DNA from: an uncultured Candidatus Saccharibacteria bacterium
GTDB taxonomy: Bacteria > Patescibacteriota > Minisyncoccia > Phycocordibacterales > DATDWN01
Assembly (NCBI GenBank): GCA_964469605.1
Contig: CAYXZA010000001.1
Span: 6,899-70,898, forward strand
Direction of reading: 5' to 3'
Length of the DNA stretch: 64,000 nt
Numbering within the stretch: the stretch's first letter is position 1; each line of letters starts with the position of its first letter. Below, piece after piece: positions 7,487 through 40,813 of the stretch. The notes beneath the pieces are model-generated. The model had not been told where the DNA came from, did not search any database, and worked only from the letters and a program-made list of their open reading frames with translations. Position numbers and translations under genes: made by a program.

Positions 7487-7492
7487 AATAAT

Positions 7493-8569: not shown

Positions 8570-8580
8570 AAAACGAAAAA

Positions 8581-8700
8581 GCCGCGGGTTTTAATCCGCG
8601 GCTAAAACTAGGACCATCGGCGGTATTCCCGCCAAAACGTCCTTGATTTTTCCATCCGGCGAGCTCGCCGGAATGCTTCCTCGCCTTCAGCGAGAAAGCT
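8581..8700. other. GC-rich multi-hairpin element (copy 1 of 2) downstream of recA; possible structured ncRNA or compound terminator
   Basis: Four hairpins in a row: gccgcgg/ccgcggc; ggcgg/ccgcc; the palindrome ccggcgagctcgccgg; tcgc/gcga. The linker aaaacgtccttgat is shared with the element at 41400-41605. Confidence 0.3.
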
Positions 8701-8826
8701 AAGAATTTTGATGAACAAATTCATATTACAATTATATCAAATTAAATACAAAATGTCAATGGTATGTTTTTAACAATATACTATATAATTTTTCGGTATT
8801 ATAATTAGATTTAATATATATAAACT

Positions 8827-26165: not shown

Positions 26166-26267
26166 AAATCTAATACAATAATGAAGCCTCGCTCCCGATG
26201 AATCGGAAACGAGGCCGAGGACCAAGGTCAAAGTGTCTAAAAAATCACAGTGACCTAGCCCAAAGAA

Positions 26268-26909: not shown

Positions 26910-26955
26910 GGTCTTTTTCCTTTCTGCCAGAGGACCATCTTTAATCTTGTTGGAT

Positions 26956-27002
26956 GGTCATAGCCAAAAAATGCCTACTTTAAGCATTTTTTGGCTATGA
27001 CC
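26956..27002 (-). promoter_or_regulatory. Conserved 5'UTR hairpin (19 bp stem) between promoter and start codon of paralog 1
   Basis: ggtcatagccaaaaaatgc-ttaaagta-gcattttttggctatgacc is a perfect inverted repeat. A nearly identical copy is at 29036-29082. Confidence 0.5.
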
Positions 27003-27064
27003 AAGTCTAAAATTAAAATTTGTCCTACTTGGGGGGTTTGGGGGTTGCCCGAATTTCTCATCCA

Positions 27065-27093
27065 ATTATATCATATTTAGATATAAAAGTCAA
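27065..27093 (-). promoter_or_regulatory. Near-consensus sigma70 promoter driving paralog 1
   Basis: Read on the minus strand: TTGACT, a 17 nt spacer, TATAAT. Confidence 0.55.
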
Positions 27094-27121
27094 TAAATAA
27101 ATTTGTAGGATTAAGAAAAGA

Positions 27122-27151
27122 CCCTGCATCTCTGTACAAGCAGATGCAGGG
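27122..27151 (-). terminator. Hairpin terminator after paralog 2
   Basis: The 10 bp stem ccctgcatct/agatgcaggg is followed, on the minus strand, by a tcttttctt T-rich tract. Confidence 0.5.
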
Positions 27152-27207
27152 CCCAAAGGGCTAAGGTCAAAGGGTTCAAGAAGGTCCCAGTGGCTTAGTC
27201 CAAAGAA

Positions 27208-28074
27208 CTAAATTGCGAGAACGGCGGATGGCTGTCGAATGTCCCAGTTGCCCATTAACCAGGACACGTTCCAGCGCCACCGACCCCTGCTCCAAAACAA
27301 GCACAGAACGTAACGGCCACCGACCGAGTCCCGAAGGACTGTGCCGTCAAAGAAGATGTAACGGGTGTTCCAGTTGACCCTCTCCTTCCACGACTCGGGA
27401 ATGAGGTGCTGGTTCTCCCAGAGCGTGAGGAAGATGTCGGCGTCCAAGCGAATGTAGTCCGATTCTTTGAGACGCCTGAGCTTCTCCTCGCCATTCACGT
27501 ACGTCTCGCCGTCCTTCAGCATCGTCACGTGCTGAACCTTCGTCAGGTCCAGTTCGGTGAGTGCGATGGATCGAGTGTCTGTCTCGTCCACCCAGATGTT
27601 CCAACCTTGGCCGATTAATAATGAATTGGGATTGAAGCGACCATGGTTGATTGGGATGATCTTCGACTCGCCGACGATGATCTTTCCACCGTTCTTGAGG
27701 AACGCCGTGAACTGTCTGCCAGCTTCCTTCGGGTTACGGACGATGAAGTCCTGAAGCCCCGAGTTAGCGAAGTCAATCGTTGCCCAATCAGTATTCACAG
27801 CCAGAGTGGCGATAACCTGATGGGATTGGTCAATTTGGCCGATTAATGAATTGGGATTGAAGCGACCATGGTTGATTGGGATGATCTTCGACTCGCCGAC
27901 GATGATCTTTCCACCGTTCTTGAGGAACGCCGTGAACTGTCTGCCAGCTTCCTTCGGGTTACGGACGATGAAGTCCTGAAGCCCCGAGTTAGCGAAGTCA
28001 ATCGTTGCCCAATCAGTATTCACAGCCAGAGTGGCGATAACCTGATGGGATTGGTCAATAGTGATTTGTCCCAT
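27208..28074 (-). CDS. GC-rich island paralog 2 (unknown function) containing an internal 75-aa tandem duplication
   Basis: Residues ~1-76 and ~77-152 are near-identical (IDQSHQVIATLAVNTDW...GRFNPNSL). The C-terminal domain is homologous to paralog 1 (FFDGTVLRDSVGGRYVLCLFWSRGRWRWNV). The start codon is preceded by a strong SD (caaggagatagacaATG). Confidence 0.55.
   Translation of the reverse strand: MGQITIDQSHQVIATLAVNTDWATIDFANSGLQDFIVRNPKEAGRQFTAFLKNGGKIIVGESKIIPINHGRFNPNSLIGQIDQSHQVIATLAVNTDWATIDFANSGLQDFIVRNPKEAGRQFTAFLKNGGKIIVGESKIIPINHGRFNPNSLLIGQGWNIWVDETDTRSIALTELDLTKVQHVTMLKDGETYVNGEEKLRRLKESDYIRLDADIFLTLWENQHLIPESWKERVNWNTRYIFFDGTVLRDSVGGRYVLCLFWSRGRWRWNVSWLMGNWDIRQPSAVLAI
27608..28060. 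repeat. Tandem direct duplication of about 225 bp (two copies, one 3 nt indel) inside paralog 2
   Basis: Plus-strand ORFs 27643-27846 and 27868-28119 translate identically. The DNA at 27608-27835 nearly equals 27836-28060. Confidence 0.8.
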
Positions 28075-28221
28075 TGTCTATCTCCTTGTGTGCAAGAGGG
28101 CGACTGTATGTCGCCGTAGCTGGGAAAGCCCTATATAAATTACTTTTTTGTAAGACTCTTTCAGCTATGGCGATTTTTTTGAAGATCAGATATGTTTAAG
28201 ACTTTGCAAATTTCTTATCGA

Positions 28222-28250
28222 ATTATATCATATTTAGATTAAAAAGTCAA
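28222..28250 (-). promoter_or_regulatory. Near-consensus sigma70 promoter driving paralog 2
   Basis: Read on the minus strand: TTGACT, a 17 nt spacer, TATAAT. Confidence 0.55.
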
Positions 28251-28278
28251 TAAATAAATTTGTAGGATTAAGAAAAGA

Positions 28279-28308
28279 CCCTGCATCTCTGTACAAGCAG
28301 ATGCAGGG
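28279..28308 (-). terminator. Hairpin terminator after paralog 3
   Basis: The same ccctgcatct/agatgcaggg hairpin as at 27122, followed by a T-rich tract. Confidence 0.5.
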
Positions 28309-28364
28309 CCCAAAGGGCTAAGATCAAAGGGTCCAAGAAGGTCCCAGTGACCAGAGCCAAAGTG

Positions 28365-28952
28365 CTACTTGCGACGAACGAACACGAAGCGACTGTAACC
28401 GTCCCAGAGGGTGTCCCACTTACCGTTGCCATTCAACCAACGACCATCCTCGCCGTGTACAACGTGGAACACGTTAGGATAGCCGTCCGAGTCCGAAATC
28501 GGTTTCATCCCGATGAGTAACCACTCTCCCTTCGGCTGGTCCTTGTACTGCAAACGCAGTTGAGGACCAACTTCAGAAGGACAGAGTTCCAGACCGAGTG
28601 AAATCGCTCGCTCGTAGATGTCGCCACGTGTGGCACCATCATTGAAGCCGAGCTCGGCAACGGAGACATTGACGAGGGGGAGCTCCATCTCGGTTTCGCT
28701 CGCCGTGAAGGCGGGCTTGCCGAGAATGTCGTTACCCCAATTCCCGATTTTGAAGCCCCCGTCCTTGAGTGCCTTTCGGAAATCATCGGCGATCTTCAGT
28801 CCCGTGCCAAGCTTCACCGTCTTCCAAATGGTGAACTGTGGAACCGATAGGGTCAGCTCACCCGAGAGGAAGCGGCGAACGCCGTCCATCCCACCGAGCT
28901 TGTTGACTATTGCTTCTATCTGACCAAGAGTTAATTCCCCGTATTTCATCAC
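28365..28952 (-). CDS. GC-rich island paralog 3 (unknown function)
   Basis: GC-rich. Its C-terminal ~40 aa (DGYPNVFHVVHGEDGRWLNGNGKWDTLWDGYSRF) resemble the paralog 1/2 C-terminal motif more weakly. It carries the same promoter, UTR and terminator cassette. Confidence 0.5.
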   Translation of the reverse strand: MMKYGELTLGQIEAIVNKLGGMDGVRRFLSGELTLSVPQFTIWKTVKLGTGLKIADDFRKALKDGGFKIGNWGNDILGKPAFTASETEMELPLVNVSVAELGFNDGATRGDIYERAISLGLELCPSEVGPQLRLQYKDQPKGEWLLIGMKPISDSDGYPNVFHVVHGEDGRWLNGNGKWDTLWDGYSRFVFVRRK

Positions 28953-29035
28953 TCTCTCTCCTTATCGGCTGATTGCCGATGGACTTCCCACTGCCCGTGG
29001 GTTTAGGGTTAGAGCTAGAGGACAACCACATTGGT

Positions 29036-29082
29036 AGTCATAGCCAAAAAATGCCTACTTTAAGCATTTTTTGGCTATGACC
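29036..29082 (-). promoter_or_regulatory. Conserved 5'UTR hairpin of paralog 3
   Basis: agtcatagccaaaaaatgc...gcattttttggctatgacc, a copy of the hairpin at 26956. Confidence 0.45.
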
Positions 29083-29144
29083 AAGTCTAAAATTAAAATT
29101 TGTCCTACTTGGGGGGTTTGGGGGCTTCTGAAATTTCTTATCCA

Positions 29145-29192: not shown

Positions 29193-30872
29193 TTACATCT
29201 CCTCTGGAGTTTTTATACCAAGAAGCCAAAGTCCTGACTGCATAGTTTCTTTGAAAACTTCTATTAAGAAGATTTTATATGGAGAATTTTTATCATCTTT
29301 GTCTACTATTTTTTCTTTTGCATAAAAACTATTAAACTCACCTGAAAGCTCTATCAGATATGTACTTATGTATTGTGGAGCATATTTTAGTCCCGCTCTT
29401 TCTATAACAGAATAAAATCTCTCTAAAAGTTTTTCTAGTTTTGTTACTTTCCAATCTTCTGGAATCAAATCACCTGAAACCAAAGACAGATCATTTGCTT
29501 TTTTTAATATAGAATTTGCTCTGACAGCTGAATATTGTAAATAAGGACCAGAATCCCCTTCAAAAGAAAGTGATTTATTGAAATCAAAAATAATATCAGA
29601 ACCGATTGATTGTTTTAATATAGAATATTTTATAGCACCAATAGCAACCATCTGAGCAATTTCTTTTTTCTTTTCATCTGAAAACTCTCTGTCTTTCATT
29701 TTTTCTAATGTTTTTTCTTTAACCTGATTTATCATTGACTCTGCTGTTATAACATTACCAGTTCTACTAGACATCTTTCCTTCTGGGAGTTTTAACATCC
29801 CATGAGATATATGTTTTAATTTACCTTTTCTTGATGGCATAACTTCACCTATGGCAACCTCTACCACATCAAAAAAACTATCTTGCTCATTTGCTGTTAC
29901 GGTAATAGATAAATCATAATCAAAATTTTCTTTTTTTATGAAAGCAAGACCAACTTCTTTTGCTTCATAAGTTGGCAATCCGTCGCTGTTTAAAAAAACT
30001 CTGGTATGAGTTTTAGGTATAAAATTTTCACCTTTAAATATCACTGCTCCACTATCACCTTTTTCAAAAACTTTACCAATATTTTCAGATACAACTTTTT
30101 TACCAATCTCCCCTGACTGACTTTCTAAAAAATGAAAATTAAAATGACTATCTAGTTTTTTATAAATTTCTTCAAAAAACTCAAAACTTTTTTTTATACC
30201 TTCTTTGTATATTAAATTTATATAACTATCAGATTCTTCATATATTTTCTTATTAATTTCATTTATTTCACTTTTTTCCACAAGGTTTTCATAAAATATA
30301 TTTCCTACTGCATAAGCTTTTTTAAAATCATCTGTTTTTTTATTGAAAATAGCCCACACAGCTTTTGCTATATGAATACCTTTATCACCGTGATAAGTAG
30401 CAACTTGCACATCCGCTCCAAGTGTCTTAATAAGTCTTGATATTGACTCACCAATTGCATTGTTCATTAAATGTCCAATGTGAAATTCTTTAAACGGATT
30501 TGGTTGAGTATGTTCTATAAAAATCTTCTTTCCTTTCAAATTGCTCGGTAAACCCTCACCTTTTTTAGTCCTCTTTAAACAATCCCTTATATATTCTTTT
30601 GTTAAAAAGAAATTCAAAAAACCATTTGGTGCAACTTCAACTTTTTCAATTTCTTTTATTTTTTGATTATTTAATTTTTCTACAAATTCAGCGGATAAAG
30701 TCTTTAAATCCTTACCCTCTTTTTTTGCCATCATCAAAGCTACGGTGCTAGAGTAGTCACCAAAAGAAAGGTTTTGATTTGGTTCAATAGAAAAATCAGT
30801 ATCTAAACCCAAAACCTCGGCTATCCATTTTTTTATTATACTTTCTGTCATTTTATTTTCCAGATGAACCAA
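29193..30872 (-). CDS. argS: Arginyl-tRNA synthetase
   Basis: A class I HIGH motif (FHIGHLMNNAIGE) and a C-terminal DALR anticodon-binding-like region. Length 559 aa. Confidence 0.9.
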   Translation of the reverse strand: MVHLENKMTESIIKKWIAEVLGLDTDFSIEPNQNLSFGDYSSTVALMMAKKEGKDLKTLSAEFVEKLNNQKIKEIEKVEVAPNGFLNFFLTKEYIRDCLKRTKKGEGLPSNLKGKKIFIEHTQPNPFKEFHIGHLMNNAIGESISRLIKTLGADVQVATYHGDKGIHIAKAVWAIFNKKTDDFKKAYAVGNIFYENLVEKSEINEINKKIYEESDSYINLIYKEGIKKSFEFFEEIYKKLDSHFNFHFLESQSGEIGKKVVSENIGKVFEKGDSGAVIFKGENFIPKTHTRVFLNSDGLPTYEAKEVGLAFIKKENFDYDLSITVTANEQDSFFDVVEVAIGEVMPSRKGKLKHISHGMLKLPEGKMSSRTGNVITAESMINQVKEKTLEKMKDREFSDEKKKEIAQMVAIGAIKYSILKQSIGSDIIFDFNKSLSFEGDSGPYLQYSAVRANSILKKANDLSLVSGDLIPEDWKVTKLEKLLERFYSVIERAGLKYAPQYISTYLIELSGEFNSFYAKEKIVDKDDKNSPYKIFLIEVFKETMQSGLWLLGIKTPEEM

Positions 30873-31275
30873 ATCCAGTTTGTCCCCTTTTTGAATCTGA
30901 TAAACTATCTACCTCAATAATATTACAATAAATATAAGGTTGTACAATCATTTGCATTACCTTATGTCCTTTTTCAAAAACATAATCATCTAAACCTAAA
31001 TTAACAACACCTAAAACAAGCTCCCCTCTAAATCCGGAATCAATAACACCAGCCAAAACTTTTATACCATTATTCATTGAAAGTCCACTCTTATCCCAAC
31101 AAAGACCAACAAAACCATCTTGTAATTCTATAGATATCCCTGTTCTTATTTTCGTTATTTTTCCCCTTACAGCAACAGTTTTTTCTAAAGCAAAAATATC
31201 CATACCTGCATCACCATCTTTTGCATAAGCTGGCAATTTAGCATCCTTTTCTATTTTTTTAACCTTTAAAATCAT
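30853..31275 (-). CDS. dut: dUTP diphosphatase (dUTPase)
   Basis: The motifs GLCWDKSGL, VIDSGFRGEL and the C-terminal glycine-rich GQTGFGSSG are typical of trimeric dUTPase. The start overlaps the argS stop. Confidence 0.85.
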   Translation of the reverse strand: MILKVKKIEKDAKLPAYAKDGDAGMDIFALEKTVAVRGKITKIRTGISIELQDGFVGLCWDKSGLSMNNGIKVLAGVIDSGFRGELVLGVVNLGLDDYVFEKGHKVMQMIVQPYIYCNIIEVDSLSDSKRGQTGFGSSGK

Positions 31276-31354
31276 ATTCTAATAATAACAAATATGTTCT
31301 AAATAAAAAATAAAGTCAATATTGTACAATAAAAATATATGATAAAATCCATCT

Positions 31355-32251
31355 ATGGAAAAGATAAAACTTAAAAGAATATTGGATATGGAAGAGCTAA
31401 AAAGTTCTCTAAAAAAATTAGAGTTTAGAGGTTTGTATGGTAAAGATGGTCAAAAAATAAGACCTTATGATAAAGCAAAGTTTAGTATTGCAACAGTATT
31501 ACCGGCACCATCCATAGGAGACTCACCAACTATAAAAATAGGAAATAAAAAGGAATTTCTTTTTTCACCTCAGCCAACATTATATCAAAATCAAACTGAC
31601 ATAATAAAAACTGTTGACAATTTCCTTAAACCACACAAAATAAGAATTAATGAATTAAAATACGGAATAGAGTATGACTGGAAAGATAGAGGCACCTTCC
31701 ATATGATACCTCCCATAATAGAAAAACATTCATATCATCTTTCCAATGGTTTTATAGATTTAAATAAATTAATAACTTTATTTAAAAAATTTTATACAAA
31801 AGATTCAGAGGGAAATTTACACCATATATTAAATAGATTTTTAGAAAATTATTTCATAGATGAAATAAGTTCAATAAATAACTTAGACATATTCCATTCA
31901 AATGCCCCTCTTATAAACTATGGAATACAATACAATGGTAAATATGATTTTTATATAATATGTGATGGTTCACACAGAATAGATTATTCAATAGAACACT
32001 TAAACAAACCGATCAATGTAATACTAGTTGAACCAGAAGAAAACCAAAAACTAATACCTTATTATGCATTTCCAATGCCATTTAGACCAACAATACGACT
32101 GTCGAGTAAGCAAGCAGAAATAATATATACAAGATTAGAAAGAGACAAAGTTCATTTATTTAATGATTTTTTAAAAAAAATACTACATTACGATTGGACA
32201 AACACTGGATTAAATGTAAGTAGACTAAGGACTAATATAAAAATAAACTAA
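31355..32251 (+). CDS. Hypothetical protein (first gene of the coupled operon; possible ParB/Srx-like DGxHR motif)
   Basis: Contains ...YIICDGSHRIDYS..., which is loosely ParB/sulfiredoxin-fold like. No P-loop. Its stop overlaps the next gene's start (taATGa). Confidence 0.35.
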   Translation: MEKIKLKRILDMEELKSSLKKLEFRGLYGKDGQKIRPYDKAKFSIATVLPAPSIGDSPTIKIGNKKEFLFSPQPTLYQNQTDIIKTVDNFLKPHKIRINELKYGIEYDWKDRGTFHMIPPIIEKHSYHLSNGFIDLNKLITLFKKFYTKDSEGNLHHILNRFLENYFIDEISSINNLDIFHSNAPLINYGIQYNGKYDFYIICDGSHRIDYSIEHLNKPINVILVEPEENQKLIPYYAFPMPFRPTIRLSSKQAEIIYTRLERDKVHLFNDFLKKILHYDWTNTGLNVSRLRTNIKIN

Positions 32252-33123
32252 TGAACAAAGAAATGTTTAATGAATTAAAGAGCAACCTTAAACTATCTAT
32301 TACAAAAAAAGATGGTTCTTTTAGATCGGTTTCTGTTGCAGTTTCACTTTCTGGAGAAAAATATTTCGGAGGATTAGTTGAATCAGATACAAATACATTT
32401 AATTTACCATCTGAACATATTGCTTTAATGTTATCCACAATATCAAATGATTATAGAGTCAATGAGATTGTTACACTAACCGAAGAAACAGATCACTATA
32501 CATTACCAATCATACTTAAAATAATAATTGATCATTCGATAAGAACTGGACAGTTGATTAAATACACCTTAATTGACACAAAAGGAGATATAATTTTTAA
32601 ACAAGAAAATGTGAGTCTTGATTTTTATAAACCAAAAAATATATTATTATCAAAAATAAATCAAAACCATTCTCCTTATCATAAAAAATTAAACTTAGAT
32701 CAAAATAAAAATTTAGTAGATGAGATTAAAAAATATGCAATTGAAGGTTTAGTTAAAAACTTCCCTCTTTATGATTCAGCTTCTGGTTATGCAACATCGG
32801 TTGTAACTGAAAAAAATGAAATATTTTTTGCCGGACAATATTCCAGTCCAGACAAAAGACTTGGGTTGCATTCAGAAGTAAATTCTATACTTTCATCACT
32901 AATGTATAATAAAGACAAAATAACACACATAGGATTAGTATCAAATAAGTATAAAAATGAACCGTGTCAAATGTGTGGAAATTGTAGACAATTTATTTCA
33001 GAAATTTGCAGTAAATTTAACTTTGATCCTAAGATATACTTATTTGCAAAAGATAAAGATATTTACATTAAACAAAATATTAATAATTATTTACCATCAA
33101 AATGGACAAGCAAAAATTGGTAG
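32251..33123 (+). CDS. Tandem-domain cytidine/dCMP-deaminase-fold protein (degenerate N-terminal domain, catalytic C-terminal domain)
   Basis: Domain 2 has GLHSEVNSI (HxE) plus PCQMCGNCRQF (PCxxC zinc ligands). Domain 1 has YFGGLVESDTNTFNLPSEHIAL, with the cysteine ligand replaced. Confidence 0.65.
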   Translation: MNKEMFNELKSNLKLSITKKDGSFRSVSVAVSLSGEKYFGGLVESDTNTFNLPSEHIALMLSTISNDYRVNEIVTLTEETDHYTLPIILKIIIDHSIRTGQLIKYTLIDTKGDIIFKQENVSLDFYKPKNILLSKINQNHSPYHKKLNLDQNKNLVDEIKKYAIEGLVKNFPLYDSASGYATSVVTEKNEIFFAGQYSSPDKRLGLHSEVNSILSSLMYNKDKITHIGLVSNKYKNEPCQMCGNCRQFISEICSKFNFDPKIYLFAKDKDIYIKQNINNYLPSKWTSKNW

Positions 33124-35516
33124 AAAAAAATACATTTCCATTAATAGATGCAATATTACAAATGCCCCAAGAAGGTACAAATGGAAATATTGCCATCTGC
33201 ACAAACACATCATCTCCCGGACAAGTATTAAACGAGATACCAGAAGATTTAAGGAAATATATATGTATTTTAGGTACTCTTATTGTAAGTCGTGACGGTG
33301 GAGAAAGAATGATTATCAATTCTTTATCCCACAAAACATTAAAATATTTAATTCTATTTTCAGAAGAATCAAACACTTTTTGCCCAAGCACTAATCTATT
33401 ACAAGCACTAATGAATGGCTTTGATCTAACACAAACAGGTAATTATATAAACGATGGTGTAGGAGCTTCATATCACTATCCAAATATTAATGCAAAAATT
33501 TTTGAAGAATTCAAAGAAGAAATCATTGTTTTGCCTATGTTTGCATATAAAAACGAAAAAAGTAAAAATATTATAGAAAACTACCTGAAATGGCTTGAAA
33601 ATAAAATACCGAAAAATCTACTAGATGAATTAATAGAAATTAATAAAAAAGATAAAATCTATTACGATTCATTGAAAATGATCATTAAAACCATATCTAA
33701 TTTAAAAGAAAATATAAAAAAACCCAAAGAACTTGATCCAAAAGATTTTCAACATCTTCAGCCACCTAAAATTTATTTAGACGTATTGCCTATAAAATTT
33801 AATACTTCATTTAAAGTAAGCAGAAAAAATAAAAGTATAAGAGTTGATTTAAAGATAATCTCAGACACCTATTTTATAATTGGAGATGACCCATTTCTAA
33901 TATGCTACTCAATCATGAAAGAGTTAGGAGATAAAAAAAAATACATTTCTCCTACAGATCAAATATTACTAGGGGCAGAGATCGGGAGAGTTAATACTGA
34001 AATACTAAATGAAGTACAATTTCCATCTTTTATTTTAGATAATGAAATTATAGGTGATAAAGAAATAAAAACAGAATCCAATATACAATTAAAAATGGAT
34101 CAAAGATATTACTATAAAATCAATTCCAGAGATAAAAAAATTTCTGTTATGTGTTTATCTTTTGATGTATGTGAATCAGTTTTTGAATTATTATCCAATA
34201 ATCTACCAGAAATGATAGACAGAATATCAAGAGAAAACAGGTTTGAAAATTATGAAATGGATATATTACACAGGATGGATATTGGAGTTCAGCTTGGAAA
34301 AGCTGCTATTGCATCAAAGCTTGGGTACTCATTTATACAAGATTTTAGTTTAATTTTTAAAATTAACAAAGAAAACCTACCAACAACTATTATAGACGGA
34401 GATAGTTTTTTAGATGTCCACAAAGGAGTTTTAAGATCAATATACACACTTGGAATAACCGAAGAGCATGGTGATTCATGGAAAGGATTGGCTCGAACAT
34501 CATCTATATTGGCAATATATAGAAAATCAAATATCTCATTGGAAAAAATACCTGCAATATACAGACAAGGTGATCAAAGCGGAGAAGAAGTTAGAGAAAA
34601 ATACAAACAGCAACTTTTAAGAAAAGATCATGATGGTTCATATTCATACGGCGAAAGAACTAGAACTTATTTTGGTTTTGATCAATTAGAAAAAACTATA
34701 GAAATCCTGAAAAATAACTCAAAATTAGCAACAATCATTCAGAGATTTGATCCTGCAACTGATATGGGAACATATATTGACATAAGCACTGGAAAACAAA
34801 AATTTACTCACGATCCATGTCTAACACATGATATTTTCTTTATACAAAACGACAAACTAAACTCTTTTCACATTGCAAGAGCACATAATGCCGTAAATGC
34901 TTATCCTGAAAATATTTTTGGTCTTTTTGATGCATACATATCAACAATACAAAAAGAATTGAATATACCTTTTGGAGATATGTATATGCTTTCCAATAGA
35001 GCAAATATTTTACTTTTAACAGAGGAACAAAGGACCAAAAAGATATTATCAGAACCATCAAAACCAGTCGGTGACATTGATACAAAATCTGGACCTTATA
35101 AACTAAATACAGATAATAATTTAAATACATCAGGAGGAGTTGCATATTATTTTGACGATATTGTTGAAATAAAAGAAAAACCTAAAAGTAAGATTCTTGA
35201 AAAATTAGAAGATTACGAAGGTGTAAATACAATCGAAAAATCTATTAACTACTTAAAAGAAAAAGGGGTTATACATAACAACCCAGTTATGTCAGAATAT
35301 TATACTGGAAAATCAGACCCCCAAGGTGATAATTTGGTATTTCTACAAATAAATGTTTATGGAGGAAAGGTTTATGCAACAGCAGTGTTTGCAAATAGAT
35401 CAATAGATAATTTATCTGATGATAAAAAACTAATTTCCTATATTGCAACATTGTTTTCAACCAGATTAAATGCTTTATTAGGGAAATTAAGTATATACTA
35501 TGTTGCATATAAATAA
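33102..35516 (+). CDS. Large fusion protein: unknown N-terminal ~480 aa plus a C-terminal thymidylate-synthase/dCMP-hydroxymethylase-like domain
   Basis: The region ~34540-35200 encodes ...IIQRFDP...HDPCLTHDIFFIQNDKLNSFHIARAHNAVNAYPENIFGLFDAYISTIQKELNIPFGDMYM... . This aligns to the ThyA core around its catalytic cysteine, as detailed in the corresponding finding. Confidence 0.55.
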   Translation: MDKQKLVEKNTFPLIDAILQMPQEGTNGNIAICTNTSSPGQVLNEIPEDLRKYICILGTLIVSRDGGERMIINSLSHKTLKYLILFSEESNTFCPSTNLLQALMNGFDLTQTGNYINDGVGASYHYPNINAKIFEEFKEEIIVLPMFAYKNEKSKNIIENYLKWLENKIPKNLLDELIEINKKDKIYYDSLKMIIKTISNLKENIKKPKELDPKDFQHLQPPKIYLDVLPIKFNTSFKVSRKNKSIRVDLKIISDTYFIIGDDPFLICYSIMKELGDKKKYISPTDQILLGAEIGRVNTEILNEVQFPSFILDNEIIGDKEIKTESNIQLKMDQRYYYKINSRDKKISVMCLSFDVCESVFELLSNNLPEMIDRISRENRFENYEMDILHRMDIGVQLGKAAIASKLGYSFIQDFSLIFKINKENLPTTIIDGDSFLDVHKGVLRSIYTLGITEEHGDSWKGLARTSSILAIYRKSNISLEKIPAIYRQGDQSGEEVREKYKQQLLRKDHDGSYSYGERTRTYFGFDQLEKTIEILKNNSKLATIIQRFDPATDMGTYIDISTGKQKFTHDPCLTHDIFFIQNDKLNSFHIARAHNAVNAYPENIFGLFDAYISTIQKELNIPFGDMYMLSNRANILLLTEEQRTKKILSEPSKPVGDIDTKSGPYKLNTDNNLNTSGGVAYYFDDIVEIKEKPKSKILEKLEDYEGVNTIEKSINYLKEKGVIHNNPVMSEYYTGKSDPQGDNLVFLQINVYGGKVYATAVFANRSIDNLSDDKKLISYIATLFSTRLNALLGKLSIYYVAYK

Positions 35517-36177
35517 TACAAACTTTTCAAAAATAAAAATAATCGGGTTTGATCTTGATCAAACTTTATATCCCAAATCCCCTCTTATAGATGAAGCTAT
35601 ACAAGGATATTTATTTGAGGAAATATCTTTACTTAAAAAAATAAGCAAAGATGAAGCAAAAAAAATATTTGATAGTTATTATAAAAATGGCAAAGGCTTA
35701 AGTGGTAGTAAAACTCTTATTCAGATTGGCTTTGGGGAAAATAGAGCAAAAAATTTAGTTCAAGAGGCACTAGAAAATGCTGATATTTCAGAATTTTTAA
35801 AACCAAACAAAGACATACTGAGCATATTAAAGTATTTAAAAAATAAATACTCATCACTTGATATAATAACCGGTTCAAATAAAAAAAATACATTAATCAA
35901 ACTTGATAAATTAAAAATTAACACCTCATTATTTAAAAATATTTTAACTTCTGATAATGCCTCAAAATCCGATTTAGATGCTTATAAAATATGGATGAGT
36001 TACTATCCAAATTTATTGCCTGAAAATTTTCTTTATATTGGGGACAGACCATCTACTGACTATGAAAAACCAAAAGATTTGGGTATAAAATCAATATTGG
36101 TAAACATTAAAGAATTTGATCCAAGCATAAACTGTCTACAACTTAAATCTCTAATTGAGATAAAGGAATATTTATAA
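35500..36177 (+). CDS. HAD-superfamily hydrolase (phosphatase/nucleotidase-like)
   Basis: N-terminal motif I IIGFDLDQTLY (DxDxT). A further HAD motif lies in ...YIGDRPSTD.... The start overlaps the preceding gene. Confidence 0.65.
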   Translation: MLHINNTNFSKIKIIGFDLDQTLYPKSPLIDEAIQGYLFEEISLLKKISKDEAKKIFDSYYKNGKGLSGSKTLIQIGFGENRAKNLVQEALENADISEFLKPNKDILSILKYLKNKYSSLDIITGSNKKNTLIKLDKLKINTSLFKNILTSDNASKSDLDAYKIWMSYYPNLLPENFLYIGDRPSTDYEKPKDLGIKSILVNIKEFDPSINCLQLKSLIEIKEYL

Positions 36178-36188
36178 AAAATTCCAGG

Positions 36189-36743
36189 TCAACCCTGGAT
36201 TTTTTTCCAAACAAAATAACTTGTCTTTTTAGAATCATTTTCTATATACCCATCTGGTTTATAACCATTATCATTTAATACTAAAATAAACCTAAAAAAA
36301 ACATAAACTGTTTTTAGTCCTGGATAAGACTTGGAGTTCTCTTCTTTTGTGGTTACCCCATTGTTTTCAAGAGTATAATTCAATGACTCAATGGATAATT
36401 CTTCTCTAATACACCTTATGACACCCTGATTTGGCTCTTCATTTAAATAGAGTTTTTCACCTAAACTTGTTTCAAGATTTCTTTTTCTTATTCTACCATC
36501 ACTAAATTCCTGCTTTTCTTCAACAAGAATATATTTATTTCCTTTATGATCATTATAGAAAACATCTATTGCAACAACTTTTAAATTCCTGACACACAAT
36601 CCACCTTCATTAATAATCAGTTCAGCTTCTTTCTTTTGAATTTCTTTTAATAAATCATCAATTGATTTCGCACTACCAAAACCCCAATTTGAAGTATCTA
36701 TTCTACTTTTTGAAAGAATTCCTAAAAGTTCTTGTTCTGTCAC
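36189..36743 (-). CDS. Hypothetical protein (weak Nudix-like REELSIE segment)
   Basis: ORF only. GEKLYLNEEPNQGVIRCIREELSI is reminiscent of a Nudix box but does not match it. Confidence 0.3.
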   Translation of the reverse strand: MTEQELLGILSKSRIDTSNWGFGSAKSIDDLLKEIQKKEAELIINEGGLCVRNLKVVAIDVFYNDHKGNKYILVEEKQEFSDGRIRKRNLETSLGEKLYLNEEPNQGVIRCIREELSIESLNYTLENNGVTTKEENSKSYPGLKTVYVFFRFILVLNDNGYKPDGYIENDSKKTSYFVWKKIQG

Positions 36744-36789
36744 TTAAACCTCTCACCTCAGACTATCAGAAAAAAATTAAAAAGTAAAA

Positions 36790-37239
36790 CTAGACTTTAC
36801 AAATATCACTTTCACACAAATCAACCTGAACTGATTGTTTAAAATGTTTCAACTCCTTTTCTTTAATAAAATTTAAAATATCTTCTTTTGATTCATATTC
36901 ATTTAAAGTAAACATTGGGTGATTTATTCCCAAGATAAATGTTGAAACTTTAGTACCTTTTTTATAGAAAGCAATGACTGGTTTACTAAACTTTTCTAAA
37001 GCTAAAGAAATCTCATATCCTAAACTTATAGAAGGATAATCACATATTGCAACAATAAAATCTGACAATAAAACACAGTTTATACTATGTTCATAAACTT
37101 CAACGGATTTTATTTGTTCTAATTCAGTAAAATCTAAAACTTCATATTGTTTTTTTAGATCAAATTTAACCTCTTTTATAAAATTTATAAAATCGATTGG
37201 AGTATTAGTTAAAGAAAGTGATATATAAATCTTTCTCAT
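36790..37239 (-). CDS. Nucleoside 2-deoxyribosyltransferase-like / TIR-like flavodoxin-fold protein
   Basis: N-terminal KIYISLSL. The segment ...ICDYPSISLGYEISLALEKFSKPVIAFY matches the NDT-family pattern (D..S...GxExG.A...gKPV) with a candidate glutamate nucleophile. Confidence 0.4.
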   Translation of the reverse strand: MRKIYISLSLTNTPIDFINFIKEVKFDLKKQYEVLDFTELEQIKSVEVYEHSINCVLLSDFIVAICDYPSISLGYEISLALEKFSKPVIAFYKKGTKVSTFILGINHPMFTLNEYESKEDILNFIKEKELKHFKQSVQVDLCESDICKV

Positions 37240-39976: not shown

Positions 39977-40813
39977 CTAACAAATATCAACAAGATTTTC
40001 AAAAACAGATGCAACAGTCACAGGACCAACACCTTTTGGAACAGGTGTTATAGCTGAAACAAAATCTTTTACAAGATCAAAACAAACATCTCCACATAAT
40101 CCAAAAGACCCATCATCTTTTTCAATTTTATTTATCCCAACATCAATAACAATAGGTTTTTTATTTCCTATATAACTTTTATCTATCAGATTTACCTTAC
40201 CAACAGCTGAAATAATAATATCTGCTGACAAAGAGATTTCTTTTGGATTTTTTGTTTGACTTGAAATAACAGAAACCAAACCCCCTCTCTGTGACAAAAG
40301 ACAAGCAGTTGGCTTTCCGACTAAATCTGATCTACCGAAAACAGAAATATTTTTTCCAACAACATCTATTTTATAAAAATCCAATATGGACAAAATGGCC
40401 CTTGCCGTTGCTGGAACTACTGATTTTTTACCACTATAAAGTAGTTTTTTATTCTCCTCCGTCAGACCATCGACATCTTTGGTTGGTAAAATAGAATTTA
40501 TTATTAAATCTTTGTCTAAATGATTTGGTATTGGAAGTTGAACAATAATACCATTTACAGAAGAGTCTTTGTTTAATTTAGAAACAAAATCTATTATTTC
40601 CTGATTTGTGGAATCAGAAGATAGATTGTATAAATCACAACCAAAACCAACCTCTTGACCAAATCTCTGTTTGTTTCTGACATAAATATCAGACTGGTCT
40701 GATATTGAAATATTTAATATTGCTAATTTTGGTTTAAAATCTAAAAATGATAATTTTTTCCTCAAATCACTTTTAATATATTCAACAACAGGAAGTCCGT
40801 AAAGTATCTGCAT
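39977..40813 (-). CDS. folD: Bifunctional methylenetetrahydrofolate dehydrogenase/cyclohydrolase
   Basis: The YxxSxxK-type region and GKNISVFGRSDLVGKPTACLL are characteristic of FolD. Confidence 0.9.
   Translation of the reverse strand: MQILYGLPVVEYIKSDLRKKLSFLDFKPKLAILNISISDQSDIYVRNKQRFGQEVGFGCDLYNLSSDSTNQEIIDFVSKLNKDSSVNGIIVQLPIPNHLDKDLIINSILPTKDVDGLTEENKKLLYSGKKSVVPATARAILSILDFYKIDVVGKNISVFGRSDLVGKPTACLLSQRGGLVSVISSQTKNPKEISLSADIIISAVGKVNLIDKSYIGNKKPIVIDVGINKIEKDDGSFGLCGDVCFDLVKDFVSAITPVPKGVGPVTVASVFENLVDIC

What the first reader, a model, noticed from the sequence alone, without database searches (positions are those of the whole stretch)
30853..37239. dut-linked, translationally coupled pyrimidine-modification or salvage operon with a thymidylate-synthase-like fusion protein
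Four plus-strand genes overlap start-to-stop (31355-32251, 32251-33123, 33102-35516, 35500-36177). They encode: a hypothetical protein with a ParB/Srx-like DGSHR motif; a tandem CDA-fold deaminase (HSE...PCQMCGNC); an 804 aa protein with a C-terminal ThyA/dCMP-hydroxymethylase-like domain; and a HAD phosphatase (DxDxT). The ThyA-like domain aligns as (ours/ThyA) LKN/LKN, PC/PC, NDKLNS/DGKLSC, ARAHN/QRSCD, PENI/PFNI, FGD/VGD. The catalytic Cys in THDPCL is conserved, as is the Asn (PENI) that corresponds to the dUMP-specificity residue. dUTPase lies immediately upstream. A nucleoside-deoxyribosyltransferase-like gene and a Nudix-like gene lie immediately downstream on the other strand. A deaminase plus a TS-like enzyme plus a phosphatase could constitute a non-canonical dCMP to dUMP to (modified) dTMP route in an organism expected to lack de novo nucleotide synthesis. 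Alternatively it could be a phage-type 5-substituted-pyrimidine (DNA hypermodification) pathway. The large unknown N-terminal domain fused to the TS-like domain is unusual.
Basis: partly seen in the sequence, partly recalled or inferred. Interest (0 to 1): 0.75.

Follow-up and report, generated by a model that had tools for sequence, protein, structure and literature searches.

The report
Unusual thymidylate-synthase-like operon of ultra-small microbes
The four overlapping genes are real and form an uncharacterised pyrimidine-nucleotide operon, conserved across the ultra-small CPR bacteria and DPANN archaea, built around an 804-residue five-part protein whose thymidylate-synthase-like core probably makes thymidylate in a non-standard way.

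Summary
Four + strand genes overlap start-to-stop, bounded by a divergent dut promoter region and a hairpin terminator. Profile and structure searches support every domain call:
- g1 has a ParB/sulfiredoxin fold.
- g2 is a tandem cytidine-deaminase fold; only the C-terminal half is catalytic.
- g3 carries a thymidylate-synthase (TS) fold.
- g4 is a HAD phosphatase.

A probable degenerate second TS repeat follows the TS core.

The block g1-g2-g3-g4 recurs in about 48 of 56 loci from Patescibacteria and DPANN archaea, often beside dut, SHMT and rplK-nusG. Distant relatives of g3 keep the ParB-like gene, and in one case also the HAD gene.

The TS core keeps the Cys nucleophile, Tyr94, Arg166 and the uracil-specifying Asn177. 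It has Asp169→Asn, lacks the folate-contact residues, and matches a flavin-dependent dCMP hydroxylase best.

Most likely reading: an unconventional cytosine-to-thymine nucleotide conversion and thymidylate module. The one-carbon or redox cofactor is unresolved, and a 5-hydroxymethyl or 5-hydroxy product is not excluded. I found no published description. Novelty: a new variant of a known kind.

The parts
30853..31275 (-). dut, dUTP diphosphatase; divergent neighbour that supplies dUMP
   Evidence: TIGR00576 E 3e-36 and PF00692 E 2e-21. A dut gene lies next to the operon in about 20 of 56 homologous loci.
31276..31354 (.). 79-bp AT-rich divergent intergenic region; presumed promoter region for dut and for the operon
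   Evidence: Sequence read. Promoter-like hexamers occur at no more than chance frequency, so the promoter role is an inference from gene layout only.
31355..32251 (+). g1: ParB/sulfiredoxin-fold protein (Pfam ParB-CE) with invariant C203-D-G-x-H207-R208; presumed NTP-dependent phosphotransferase
32251..33123 (+). g2: tandem cytidine-deaminase-fold protein. The N-terminal half is degenerate (no Zn ligands). The C-terminal half is catalytic (H207-S-E209, C242-G-x-C245-R-Q-F).
   Evidence: Family profile against PDB: B. subtilis CDA E 2e-10, E. coli Cdd E 6e-4. Internal repeat: hhalign 85%, E 6e-6. Invariant columns. The ribose-binding Asn42 and Glu44 of B. subtilis CDA align with invariant Tyr197 and near-invariant Ser199 (>=90% of sequences).
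33102..35516 (+). g3: 804-aa multidomain TS-like fusion protein (whole gene)
   Evidence: More than 120 full-length homologs at 50-66% identity. AF2 model pLDDT 84. Globally homologous to the distant 811-877 aa proteins P0304 and P0310 (hhalign 99.5-99.8%).
33135..33701 (+). g3 domain 1 (aa ~12-200): MtrA-like Rossmann domain without the cobalt-ligand His (His84 aligns with invariant Phe93; Glu54 with Ser63)
34077..34346 (+). g3 domain 3 (aa ~326-415): PterinBD-DUF4346-like domain with invariant C351, D355 and C357. Residues 206-325 before it form a conserved linker/beta domain of unknown fold.
   Evidence: hhalign of the middle region against PF14251 segments of P0318, P0322, P0327, P0310 and P0304: 95.7%, E 1e-8. 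PF14251 was identified in those relatives.
34374..35051 (+). g3 domain 4 (aa ~425-650): TS-fold catalytic domain of the archaeal (TIGR03283) lineage. Residues: Tyr516 (=Tyr94), Cys573 (=Cys146, nt 34818-34820), Arg593 (=Arg166), Asn596 (=Asp169, nt 34887-34889), Asn604 (=Asn177, nt 34911-34913), His570 (=Leu143).
35139..35513 (+). g3 domain 5 (aa ~680-804): probable degenerate TS repeat in which DPC becomes DPQ; inferred to act as an intramolecular pseudo-dimer partner
   Evidence: The hhalign alignment is in register with the TS core, but support is weak (P 0.015, probability 3%). The AF2 model shows the same helix/hairpin/helix/strand order. No PDB hit for this domain.
35500..36177 (+). g4: HAD-superfamily phosphatase (D18-L-D20-Q-T22), closest to pyrimidine 5'-nucleotidases
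   Evidence: HAD_2 E 5e-15; TIGR02253 E 2e-15; TIGR01993 pyrimidine 5'-nucleotidase E 2e-11; YjjG E 1e-5. PDB Sdt1/SSM1 E 1.6e-3. Present in 48 of 56 loci and beside the distant relative P0304.
36183..36199 (.). Bidirectional hairpin terminator closing the operon and the convergent gene g5
   Evidence: TCCAGGTCAACCCTGGA followed by a T-run on both strands.
36189..36743 (-). g5: weakly Nudix-like protein; a frequent convergent neighbour
   Evidence: Pfam NUDIX E 0.054 only. Homolog directly downstream in about 14-17 loci.
36790..37239 (-). g6: weakly DNPH1/Rcl- or nucleoside-2-deoxyribosyltransferase-like protein; an occasional neighbour
   Evidence: phmmer against PDB: DNPH1 (5-hydroxymethyl-dUMP N-hydrolase) E 0.015-0.14, and NDT E 0.9. 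Adjacent in about 5 loci, only 2-3 of them convincingly.
39977..40813 (-). folD (context): methylene-tetrahydrofolate dehydrogenase/cyclohydrolase, 3.8 kb downstream
   Evidence: PF02882 E 7e-47, PF00763 E 7e-28.

Best explanation
This is a housekeeping operon of Patescibacteria (the window groups with Zambryskibacteria) that is also shared with DPANN archaea. It converts scavenged cytosine deoxynucleotides or nucleosides into a C5-substituted uracil nucleotide, most probably dTMP.

Proposed steps:
- g2, a cytidine-deaminase-family enzyme, deaminates the cytosine compound to the uracil compound. dut and the cell's other routes also feed dUMP.
- In g3, the TS-fold domain attacks C6 of the uracil nucleotide with Cys573. 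Asn604 reads the uracil face, Arg593 binds the phosphate, and Tyr516 acts as the base. A one-carbon unit is installed at C5.
- The canonical folate-contact residues are missing and Asp169 is Asn. The one-carbon and reducing cofactor is therefore held differently, with the help of the fused PterinBD-DUF4346 and His-less MtrA-like domains. The C-terminal degenerate TS repeat stands in for the second subunit of the usual TS dimer.
- Methylene-tetrahydrofolate from the neighbouring SHMT and FolD is the likely carbon source.
- g1 (ParB/Srx-fold phosphotransferase) and g4 (HAD pyrimidine nucleotidase) set the phosphorylation state of the substrate or product. For example dCMP -> dC -> dU -> dUMP, or dTMP -> dTDP.

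What is shown: the operon structure, the folds, the catalytic-residue conservation, the synteny and the taxonomic spread.
What is inferred: the substrates, the product (methyl rather than hydroxymethyl or hydroxyl), the cofactor, the order of steps and the role of each accessory domain.
For: Operon boundaries:
- Overlapping genes, a divergent dut gene and a terminator.

TS domain of g3:
- Cys146, Tyr94, Arg166 and Asn177 equivalents are invariant in 30 homologs and in DPANN copies.

Other proteins:
- g2 carries the cytidine-deaminase signature CGxCRQF and matches CDA at E 2e-10.
- g4 is nearest to pyrimidine 5'-nucleotidases.
- g1 is nearest to the small-molecule kinases and phosphotransferases of the ParB/Srx fold.

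Synteny:
- g1-g2-g3-g4 are syntenic in about 48 of 56 loci.
- Recurrent neighbours are dut (18-20 loci), SHMT (15 loci, PF00464 E 1e-153) and rplK/nusG (about 30 loci). folD lies in the window. Together these are a thymidylate-cycle neighbourhood in a housekeeping setting.
- Distant relatives keep the ParB-CE gene (P0310), or the ParB-CE and HAD genes (P0304), beside the fusion.

Other points:
- No canonical ThyA, ThyX motif-bearing protein of plausible size, or E. coli-like DHFR was found in the window or in about 0.8 Mb of flanks.
- Sequence conservation is very high (50-66% identity across classes), as expected of an essential enzyme.
- No PADLOC defence hits.
Against: - Asp169 is Asn in every member. 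In the published ThyA-family survey this substitution marks flavin-dependent 5-hydroxy-dCMP synthases (PMC13326640).
- The best structural match is such a hydroxylase, 9iqc/9iqu.
- The Leu143 position, associated with methyl rather than hydroxymethyl products, is His.
- The 3'-OH-binding His207 and Tyr209, the partner-subunit Arg126/127, and the folate contacts Glu58, Trp80 and Trp83 have no counterpart.
- The protein scores far below the TS family cut-offs (63.5 bits against 174.55).
- A phosphatase in a dTMP-forming operon is not obviously useful.
- Whether these genomes lack ThyA or ThyX could not be tested genome-wide.
Confidence: 0.5

Rival explanations
1. The operon makes a non-canonical pyrimidine nucleotide, 5-hydroxymethyl-dUMP or 5-hydroxy-dUMP. 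This would be for DNA base replacement or modification, as in phages, or for another metabolite. The deaminase and dUTPase feed dUMP. The TS homolog hydroxymethylates or hydroxylates it. The ParB-like kinase phosphorylates the modified nucleotide onward. The HAD nucleotidase, and the DNPH1-like and Nudix-like neighbours, clear unwanted nucleotides.
For: - Asp169->Asn is invariant and is the published diagnostic of flavin-dependent 5-hydroxy-dCMP synthases.
- The top structural hits are 9iqc and 9iqu.
- A polar His sits at the Leu143 position.
- The nearest phage proteins by tblastn are annotated or known dUMP hydroxymethylases of phiRSL1 and PaMx11.
- The gene set mirrors the phage sets of deaminase, TS homolog, dUTPase, kinase and nucleotidase.
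- g6 weakly resembles 5-hydroxymethyl-dUMP N-hydrolase.
Against: - The hydroxylases carry Asn177->Asp and Leu143->Glu. Here Asn177 is kept and position 143 is His.
- Phage dUMP hydroxymethylases keep Asp169 (NRSND).
- An O2-dependent step is unlikely to be a core function in largely anaerobic CPR and DPANN lineages (inference).
- The operon is near-universal, shows no mixing of CPR and DPANN copies in the tree, and sits among ribosomal and tRNA-synthetase genes. It gives no defence-system hits.
- Long contigs of 0.5-0.6 Mb from MAGs that are probably long-read assemblies (my inference from the record names; I did not check the sequencing platform) carry intact operons. That is hard to reconcile with wholesale thymine replacement (inference).
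Confidence: 0.2
2. g3 is a corrinoid-dependent thymidylate synthase. The MtrA-like domain carries a cobamide that is methylated from a methyl-pterin, and the Cys-activated C5 of dUMP takes the methyl group directly. No dihydrofolate is formed, so no DHFR is needed. g1 could be the NTP-dependent reactivator of oxidised corrinoid.
For: - MtrA-like domains recur fused to archaeal-type TS and PterinBD domains in many archaea, and fused to MtrH in a DPANN protein.
- The N-terminal domain has many invariant polar residues, which suggests a real ligand site.
- No DHFR was seen in the flanks.
Against: - The cobalt ligand His84 aligns with an invariant Phe, and its partner Glu54 with Ser.
- The same His->Phe change is seen in most TS-fused MtrA-like domains.
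- No MtrH-, MeTr- or MetH-like methyltransferase and no MTHFR occur among the recurrent neighbours.
- Recurrent SHMT adjacency, and FolD in the window, point to methylene-folate, not methyl-folate.
Confidence: 0.1
3. The operon is not about DNA precursors. The TS-like Cys enzyme and the deaminase-plus-phosphatase pair act on a ribonucleotide, an RNA, or a pyrimidine or pterin cofactor intermediate. This would be analogous to CMP hydroxymethylase pathways (MilA/BcmA) or to the RibD-plus-HAD steps of riboflavin synthesis.
For: - The deoxyribose 3'-OH contacts His207 and Tyr209 are not conserved.
- The ribose contacts of cytidine deaminase are replaced in g2.
- Deaminase plus HAD phosphatase is also the logic of riboflavin biosynthesis (established knowledge). 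There is a weak YigB hit at E 0.02.
Against: - dUTPase is the most specific recurrent neighbour.
- Asn177 is kept, whereas MilA and BcmA are cytosine-specific with Asp.
- g2 carries the cytidine-deaminase CGxCRQF signature rather than a RibD-like one.
- No glycosidase or other antibiotic or cofactor pathway genes recur.
Confidence: 0.08

Closest known systems
Archaeal-type thymidylate synthase (TIGR03283, MJ0757-like) and its uncharacterised MtrA-TS-PterinBD(DUF4346) fusions in archaea
   Same: The best sequence-family match for the g3 TS domain (E 1.9e-17). Both have the same compact TS core without the folate-binding helices. The modules MtrA-like, PterinBD and TS co-occur in both.
   Different: - g3 scores well below the family cut-off.
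- g3 has Asn in place of the conserved Asp169, and R-A-N-I-L in place of the H-x-Y 3'-OH motif.
- The module order differs (PterinBD lies before TS).
- g3 has an extra linker domain and a degenerate second TS repeat.
- g3 sits in a four-gene operon with ParB-CE, CDA and HAD genes.
- I found no searchable published biochemistry for these archaeal fusions.
Canonical ThyA, and bifunctional DHFR-TS of protozoa and plants
   Different: - The fusion partner is MtrA-like plus PterinBD, not DHFR.
- Asp169, Glu58, Trp80/83, His207/Tyr209 and Arg126'/127' are not conserved.
- The protein is probably a pseudo-dimer within one chain.
Flavin-dependent 5-hydroxy-dCMP synthases of phages (HY126 AfhB, PDB 9iqc/9iqu; RB69 gp48; DLP3 gp80)
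   Different: - Those enzymes are cytosine-specific (Asn177->Asp) with Glu at position 143. g3 keeps Asn177 and has His.
- They are about 220-aa single-domain phage proteins that need O2.
- g3 is an 804-aa chromosomal housekeeping protein of mostly anaerobic lineages.
Phage deoxypyrimidine reprogramming gene sets (the SPO1 and T4 paradigm: dCMP deaminase, TS-homolog hydroxymethylase, dUTPase/dCTPase, dNMP kinase, nucleotidase)
   Same: The same functional inventory clustered together: deaminase, TS homolog, phosphotransferase, nucleotidase and dUTPase.
   Different: - It is cellular, and conserved without mixing across two whole radiations.
- The deaminase belongs to the cytidine-deaminase family, not the dCMP-deaminase family.
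- The kinase candidate has a ParB/Srx fold, not a P-loop.
- There are no glycosyl- or other transferase genes.
MtrA, the corrinoid subunit of methyl-H4MPT:CoM methyltransferase
   Different: His84 (the Co ligand) aligns with Phe and Glu54 with Ser. There is no membrane anchor and no Mtr partners. Cobamide binding is therefore doubtful.
Free serine kinases SerK and SbnI, and sulfiredoxin (enzymatic ParB/Srx-fold proteins)

Membership tests
ThyA thymidylate synthase (PF00303 / TIGR03284) | TS alpha/beta fold | tested here: met
ThyA thymidylate synthase (PF00303 / TIGR03284) | Catalytic Cys146, Tyr94, Arg166 and uracil-specifying Asn177 | tested here: met
   Cys573, Tyr516, Arg593 and Asn604 are invariant in 30 homologs and in DPANN copies.
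ThyA thymidylate synthase (PF00303 / TIGR03284) | Pterin-contacting Asp169 and folate contacts Glu58, Trp80 and Trp83 | tested here: not met
   Asp169 is replaced by invariant Asn596. There is no counterpart of the Glu58 or Trp80/83 segment.
ThyA thymidylate synthase (PF00303 / TIGR03284) | dUMP 3'-OH contacts His207 and Tyr209, and partner-subunit Arg126'/Arg127' | tested here: not met
   GGDTHLY aligns with SNRANIL. The Arg pair is reduced to a non-invariant single Arg, which is Lys-Leu in the window and absent in DPANN copies.
ThyA thymidylate synthase (PF00303 / TIGR03284) | Score above the curated family cut-off | tested here: not met
   No PF00303 hit at E<=1 for the window protein. TIGR03284 is not reported.
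ThyA thymidylate synthase (PF00303 / TIGR03284) | Forms dTMP and dihydrofolate from dUMP and CH2-THF | not testable with these tools
   Needs an enzyme assay or complementation.
Archaeal-type TS (TIGR03283) | Match to the family model above the trusted cut-off | tested here: not met
   63.5 bits (E 1.9e-17) against a cut-off of 174.55. The match is homologous but outside the equivalog.
Archaeal-type TS (TIGR03283) | R-[SA]-[HQ]-D motif (Asp169 equivalent) and H-x-Y near the C-terminus | tested here: not met
   Archaeal members have RSHD or RAQD and AHRY, GHFY or AHIY. g3 has RAHN and RANIL.
Flavin-dependent 5-hydroxy-dCMP synthase (AfhB / RB69 gp48 type) | Asp169->Asn (the published diagnostic residue) | tested here: met
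   Asn596 is invariant. The criterion is from PMC13326640.
Flavin-dependent 5-hydroxy-dCMP synthase (AfhB / RB69 gp48 type) | Asn177->Asp (cytosine specificity) and Leu143->Glu | tested here: not met
   Asn604 is retained, and position 143 is His570.
Flavin-dependent 5-hydroxy-dCMP synthase (AfhB / RB69 gp48 type) | Bound flavin and O2-dependent hydroxylation | not testable with these tools
   Needs spectroscopy and assays.
MtrA corrinoid protein (PF04208) | MtrA Rossmann-type fold | tested here: met
MtrA corrinoid protein (PF04208) | His84 cobalt ligand, hydrogen-bonded to Glu54 | tested here: not met
   His84 aligns with invariant Phe93 and Glu54 with Ser63 (alignment; residue roles from PMC4915002).
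MtrA corrinoid protein (PF04208) | Score above the Pfam gathering threshold | tested here: not met
   16.1 bits against 25.
PterinBD-DUF4346 (PF14251) | Profile similarity to the domain | tested here: met
   hhalign 95.7%, E 1e-8 against segments taken from PF14251-positive relatives. There is no direct Pfam hit for the window protein.
Cytidine deaminase (CDA; TIGR01354/TIGR01355) | Zn-binding H/C-A/S-E ... C-x-x-C with the CGxCRQ signature | tested here: met
   H207-S-E209 and C242-G-N-C245-R-Q-F are invariant. The profile hits 1ux1 at E 2e-10.
Cytidine deaminase (CDA; TIGR01354/TIGR01355) | Ribose-binding Asn42 and Glu44 (B. subtilis numbering), and a score above cut-off | tested here: not met
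   They align with Tyr197 and Ser199. TIGR01354 scores 30.3 bits against 113.65.
HAD-superfamily phosphatase | DxDxT nucleophile motif and HAD core | tested here: met
   D18-L-D20-Q-T22 is read from the sequence. HAD_2 scores 56.5 bits against a cut-off of 23.8.
ParB/sulfiredoxin fold (Pfam ParB-CE PF24392) | ParB/Srx fold with a DGxHR-type motif | tested here: met
ParB/sulfiredoxin fold (Pfam ParB-CE PF24392) | NTP binding or phosphotransfer activity | not testable with these tools
   Needs biochemistry.

The most novel reading that the evidence does not exclude
g3 is the founding member of a third mechanistic class of thymidylate synthase. It would be a ThyA-fold, Cys-dependent enzyme that does not oxidise tetrahydrofolate. 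Instead it would draw its reducing equivalents, or its methyl group, from a flavin or corrinoid held by the fused PterinBD and His-less MtrA-like modules. That would make dTMP synthesis independent of DHFR. With its ParB-like phosphotransferase and HAD partners, it would be the sole thymidylate route of both CPR bacteria and DPANN archaea. It could also explain the long-unresolved one-carbon donor of archaeal-type TS.
Probability: 0.2. Interest if true: 0.9.

Novelty: new variant of a known kind. Interest (0 to 1): 0.66.

Why it matters
- Thymidylate synthesis is essential and is a classic drug target. Only two enzyme classes are known, ThyA and ThyX.
- CPR bacteria and DPANN archaea make up a large share of microbial diversity, are thought to live on scavenged nucleotides, and are almost entirely uncultured.
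- A conserved operon shared by both radiations and centred on a TS-fold enzyme with altered cofactor-site residues and fused MtrA-like and pterin-binding-like modules would matter in several ways.
  - It could define how these organisms turn host-derived cytosine nucleotides into thymidylate. That need is obvious for a 29% GC genome.
  - It would test whether automated 'thyA' calls in published CPR metabolic reconstructions rest on this atypical protein. Some IMG records name homologs 'thymidylate synthase'.
  - It gives a concrete handle on the cofactor question for archaeal-type TS.
  - It may reveal new TS chemistry, or a cellular non-canonical DNA base.
- It is also a clean marker of gene sharing, or of common constraint, between the two ultra-small radiations.

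Tried and rejected
- Direct phmmer of g3 against PDB sequences found nothing. Only the family profile and the fold search resolved the domains.
- A profile of g1 against PDB sequences gave only spurious hits. The fold search was needed.
- Literature searches found no description of this protein family or operon. Terms tried: MtrA plus thymidylate synthase plus Patescibacteria, 'ParB-CE', 'MtrA-like', 'DUF4346', ParB plus sulfiredoxin plus TS, 'MJ0757', and thyX plus CPR. The library does not cover most subscription journals, so this is not proof of absence.
- Looking up the window's own contig through the 100%-identical protein P0001 failed, because the product is not on record.
- Defence-system reading: rejected. 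There are no PADLOC hits and the context is housekeeping.
- Prophage or island reading: rejected. The operon's GC content of 27-28% matches the chromosome, and the synteny is conserved.
- ThyA-DHFR-type arrangement: rejected. No DHFR-like domain or gene was found.
- His-on cobalamin binding by the MtrA-like domain: rejected, because His84 aligns with Phe.
- C-terminal domain as a T-fold pterin-binding domain: considered from its secondary structure, but dropped in favour of a degenerate TS repeat. That reading is itself only weakly supported.
- Serine kinase plus phosphoserine phosphatase for g1 and g4: considered because of the SerK and SbnI hits and the SHMT neighbour. It is not supported, since g4 gives no PSP-family hit.
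- Genome-wide absence of thyA, thyX and folA could not be tested. Only the window and about 0.8 Mb of flanks were scanned, using E. coli queries and a ThyX motif. This is a weak negative.

Full report
**1. The observation**

| Gene | Coordinates | Strand | Length |
|---|---|---|---|
| dut | 30853-31275 | - | 140 aa |
| g1 | 31355-32251 | + | 298 aa |
| g2 | 32251-33123 | + | 290 aa |
| g3 | 33102-35516 | + | 804 aa |
| g4 | 35500-36177 | + | 225 aa |
| g5 | 36189-36743 | - | 184 aa |
| g6 | 36790-37239 | - | 149 aa |

- The four + strand genes overlap by 1, 22 and 17 nt.
- A 79-bp AT-rich spacer separates g1 from the divergent dut gene.
- A bidirectional hairpin terminator, TCCAGGTCAACCCTGGA plus T-runs at 36183-36199, lies between the stops of g4 and g5.
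- GC content across the operon (27-28%) matches the rest of the window.
- The surrounding genes are housekeeping: argS, rplK, nusG, secE, folD, recA, ssb, metG and others.
- Homologs of g3 are all from Patescibacteria, and the window copy groups with Zambryskibacteria.

**2. What each protein is**

*dut* is a standard dUTPase (TIGR00576, E 3e-36).

*g1*
- It gives only a sub-threshold hit to Pfam ParB-CE (PF24392, E 2.5e-4). Many of its 50-70% identical homologs carry a precomputed PF24392 hit.
- An AlphaFold model built on 30 homologs has pLDDT 78.
- The motif C203-D-G-S-H207-R208 is invariant.
- The nearest relatives are the enzymatic, small-molecule or protein-thiol-directed members of the fold. 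I therefore infer a nucleotide-dependent phosphotransferase.

*g2*
- Its C-terminal half is a genuine cytidine-deaminase-family domain. A family profile hits B. subtilis CDA at E 2e-10 and E. coli Cdd at 6e-4.
- It has invariant H207-S-E209 and C242-G-x-C245-R-Q-F. This is essentially the E. coli CGHCRQF signature.
- The N-terminal half aligns in register with the C-terminal half (hhalign 85%, E 6e-6). There Ser replaces the Zn-ligand His and there are no Cys ligands.
- So this is a tandem CDA fold with one active site. The domain order is the reverse of E. coli Cdd.
- The ribose-binding Asn42 and Glu44 of B. subtilis CDA align with invariant Tyr197 and near-invariant Ser199. The sugar or phosphate part of the substrate may therefore differ from plain (deoxy)cytidine.

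*g4*
- It is a HAD phosphatase with DLDQT (HAD_2, E 5e-15).
- It is closest to pyrimidine 5'-nucleotidase families: TIGR01993 at 2e-11, YjjG at 1e-5, and yeast Sdt1/SSM1 structures at 1.6e-3.

*g5 and g6* are only weakly assignable.
- g5: Nudix, E 0.054.
- g6: DNPH1/Rcl, E 0.015.

**3. Anatomy of g3**

The AlphaFold model built on 30 homologs has pLDDT 84.

| Residues | Module | Evidence |
|---|---|---|
| ~206-325 | Conserved linker/beta domain | No assignable fold |
| ~326-415 | PterinBD-DUF4346-like domain | hhalign 95.7%, E 1e-8 |
| ~680-804 | Probable degenerate TS repeat | hhalign P 0.015 only |

*MtrA-like domain.* In MtrA, His84 ligates the cobalt and is hydrogen-bonded to Glu54 (PMC4915002).
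- In g3 these positions align with invariant Phe93 and with Ser63.
- The same His-to-Phe change occurs in most other TS-fused MtrA-like domains I inspected: P0322, P0318, P0310 and P0304.
- The fold is therefore MtrA, but classical His-on cobamide binding is not supported.

*PterinBD-like domain.* The match is to PF14251 segments taken from relatives that hit that Pfam family directly. The domain carries invariant C351, D355 and C357.

*C-terminal domain.* It has the same helix, beta-hairpin, helix, strand order as the second half of the TS domain. It aligns in register with that half, with DPC replaced by DPQ. I treat it as a probable degenerate TS repeat that could replace the partner subunit of the obligate TS dimer. 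This is an inference.

**4. Active-site reading of the TS domain**

The alignment includes E. coli ThyA, two phage dUMP hydroxymethylase-type proteins, archaeal-type TS, the distant 800-aa relatives and DPANN copies (invariance; translation).

Conserved:
- Cys146 -> Cys573
- Tyr94 -> Tyr516
- Arg166 -> Arg593

Not conserved:
- Asp169 -> Asn596. It is invariant, also in DPANN copies.
- Leu143 -> His570.
- His207 and Tyr209 -> Asn635 and Leu637, with invariant Arg633 nearby.
- Arg126'/127' are reduced or absent.
- The Glu58 and Trp80/83 folate-contact segment is missing.

How Asp169 behaves elsewhere:
- Archaeal-type TS keeps Asp169 (RSHD).
- The phage dUMP hydroxymethylase-type proteins keep it (NRSND).
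- The distant 811-877 aa relatives P0304 and P0310 keep it (RAHD, RSHD).
- The change to Asn is therefore specific to the CPR/DPANN clade, plus one Abditibacteriota protein.

Lee et al. (PMC13326640) report Asp169->Asn as the diagnostic of TS homologs that hydroxylate dCMP with a flavin and O2. Those enzymes also have Asn177->Asp and Leu143->Glu, which g3 lacks. g3 thus fails membership tests both for canonical ThyA and for the hydroxylases. It is a diverged branch of the archaeal-type TS lineage whose cofactor site has changed.

**5. Distribution and context**

- The word-indexed search found more than 120 full-length homologs at 50-66% identity. Nearly all are unnamed or 'hypothetical', and a few IMG records name them 'thymidylate synthase'.
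- The exhaustive representative search shows that the family collapses to a handful of 50% clusters.
- Beyond those clusters lie 811-906 aa relatives (E 1e-31 to 1e-11), and many 460-520 aa proteins that combine MtrA and archaeal-type TS, some also with PterinBD; the named members are archaeal.
- A scan of one genome per species returned 54 loci.
  - Patescibacterial lineages include Zambryski-, Nomura-, Vogel-, Kaiser-, Sungii-, Peri- and Gracilibacteria, Paceibacterota and Saccharimonadales.
  - At 40-48% identity there are also DPANN archaea: Woesearchaeota, Nanoarchaeota and Iainarchaeum.

Synteny analysis, over 56 non-redundant loci:

| Gene | Loci with the gene adjacent |
|---|---|
| g2 | 49 |
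| g1 | 48 |
| g4 | 48 |
| rplK | 31 |
| nusG | 30 |
| argS | 23 |
| dut | 18-20 |
| SHMT (PF00464, E 1e-153) | 15 |
| g5 | 14-17 |

- Most loci that lack one of g1, g2 or g4 are truncated contigs.
- The g1-g2-g3-g4 block is almost always in the same order and on the same strand, in the archaea too.
- The window has folD 3.8 kb downstream of the operon.
- In a neighbour-joining tree rooted on the distant relatives, the CPR and DPANN copies form two sister clades. That implies either one ancient inter-domain transfer of the whole operon or long co-retention.
- Outside these radiations, the distant relative P0310 has a ParB-CE gene just upstream. It is homologous to g1 (hhalign 92.7%).
- P0304 has HAD and ParB-CE genes divergently adjacent.
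- The ParB-like gene, and in P0304 also the HAD gene, stays beside the TS fusion even in these distant relatives (two of the three examined). The CDA gene was seen only in the CPR and DPANN loci.

**6. Mechanism proposed**

The recurrent neighbours dut, SHMT and FolD make up the thymidylate-cycle neighbourhood. Together with the uracil-type Asn and the intact Cys/Tyr/Arg catalytic set, they make C5 one-carbon transfer to dUMP the most economical reading.

The housekeeping location, the extreme conservation and the presence throughout two radiations favour dTMP as the product. A scavenging organism with a 29% GC genome also has an obvious need to turn surplus cytosine nucleotides into thymidylate. 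That last point is an inference.

The changed cofactor site and the fused MtrA-like and PterinBD modules argue that the one-carbon or reducing cofactor is handled in a non-ThyA manner.

g1 and g4 probably set the phosphorylation state of the substrate or product. Two possibilities:
- A nucleoside-level deamination loop, dCMP -> dC -> dU -> dUMP. This would fit g2 being of the nucleoside-deaminase family.
- A phosphate 'handle' added before the TS step and removed after it. This would fit the new invariant Arg633 where the 3'-OH contacts normally sit.

Both are speculative.

I put 0.5 on the dTMP reading. The rivals are:
- a 5-hydroxymethyl or 5-hydroxy uracil nucleotide (0.2);
- a corrinoid-mediated methyl transfer (0.1);
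- a non-DNA-precursor role (0.08).

**7. What I could not do**

The decisive bioinformatic test is whether operon-bearing genomes lack thyA, thyX and folA. It was out of reach because only flanks can be fetched.

A scan of the window plus about 0.8 Mb of flanks, using E. coli ThyA, FolA and Tmk as queries and the ThyX RHRx7S motif, found no canonical ThyA or DHFR and one Tmk. That is a weak negative.

**8. Novelty and verdict**

None of my literature searches retrieved a description of this family, its architecture or the operon. Databases call the protein hypothetical, or auto-label it thymidylate synthase.

All the folds are known, and the overall logic of deaminase, TS homolog, kinase-like protein and nucleotidase is known from phages. 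I therefore class it as a new variant of a known kind.

There is a real chance, about 0.2, of new TS chemistry. Interest score: 0.66.

Noticed in passing
window 26100-29100: A roughly 3-kb island of 45-57% GC sits in a 29% GC chromosome, between alanine racemase and argS. It holds three minus-strand ORFs without Pfam hits. It also holds a perfect 225-bp x2 tandem duplication at 27619-28059, which gives ORF 27208-28074 an internal protein repeat. It is either a recent foreign insertion or an assembly chimera.
   Followed up: partly
L044, L047-L050, L053, L054, L057, L059, L061 (g3 match usually at 7001-9400): The whole g1-g2-g3-g4 block is shared between CPR bacteria and DPANN archaea at 40-48% identity. 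In an NJ tree the two sets form sister clades. In L053 the order is permuted (g3-g4-g1-g2), and in L059 g1 and g2 were not found within the flank.
   Followed up: partly
L065 6001-7569 and flanks: A Thermoprotei-type 522-aa MtrA-TS fusion (P0328) is the only TS-fused MtrA-like domain I inspected that keeps the His84 equivalent. It lies among many small unannotated ORFs with a resolvase and a PD-(D/E)XK nuclease, which looks like an archaeal virus or mobile element.
   Followed up: no
P0327 (Abditibacteriota, 786 aa; not in the window): This protein contains two TS(TIGR03283)+PterinBD units in tandem. Like the CPR/DPANN family, it has Asn at the Asp169 position (RTHN).
   Followed up: no
P0362 (DPANN archaeon, 544 aa; not in the window): An MtrA-MtrH fusion turned up among weak hits to the g3 N-terminal domain. 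MtrA-like modules are thus combined with different pterin-dependent partners in DPANN genomes.
   Followed up: no
window 13311-14369 and 42942-44006; 15697-16965 and 45449-46717: The window carries two AI-2E family transporter paralogs and two M16 peptidase genes. This is ordinary gene content and unrelated to the finding.
   Followed up: no
L036 4055-4750 (-): In one Parcubacteria locus a thymidylate kinase homolog (E 1e-5 to E. coli Tmk) lies just upstream of the operon. It was the only Tmk seen in the flanks.
   Followed up: no
L015 and L041 (record titles 'uncultured Gammaproteobacteria'), L042 ('Methanosarcinales'): These MAG labels disagree with the placement of their g3 copies. L015 groups inside the Patescibacteria clade and L042 inside the DPANN clade. 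L041 carries a truncated g3 that was not in the tree, but its best segment is 60% identical to the window protein. This probably reflects binning or taxonomy errors in the source records.
   Followed up: no
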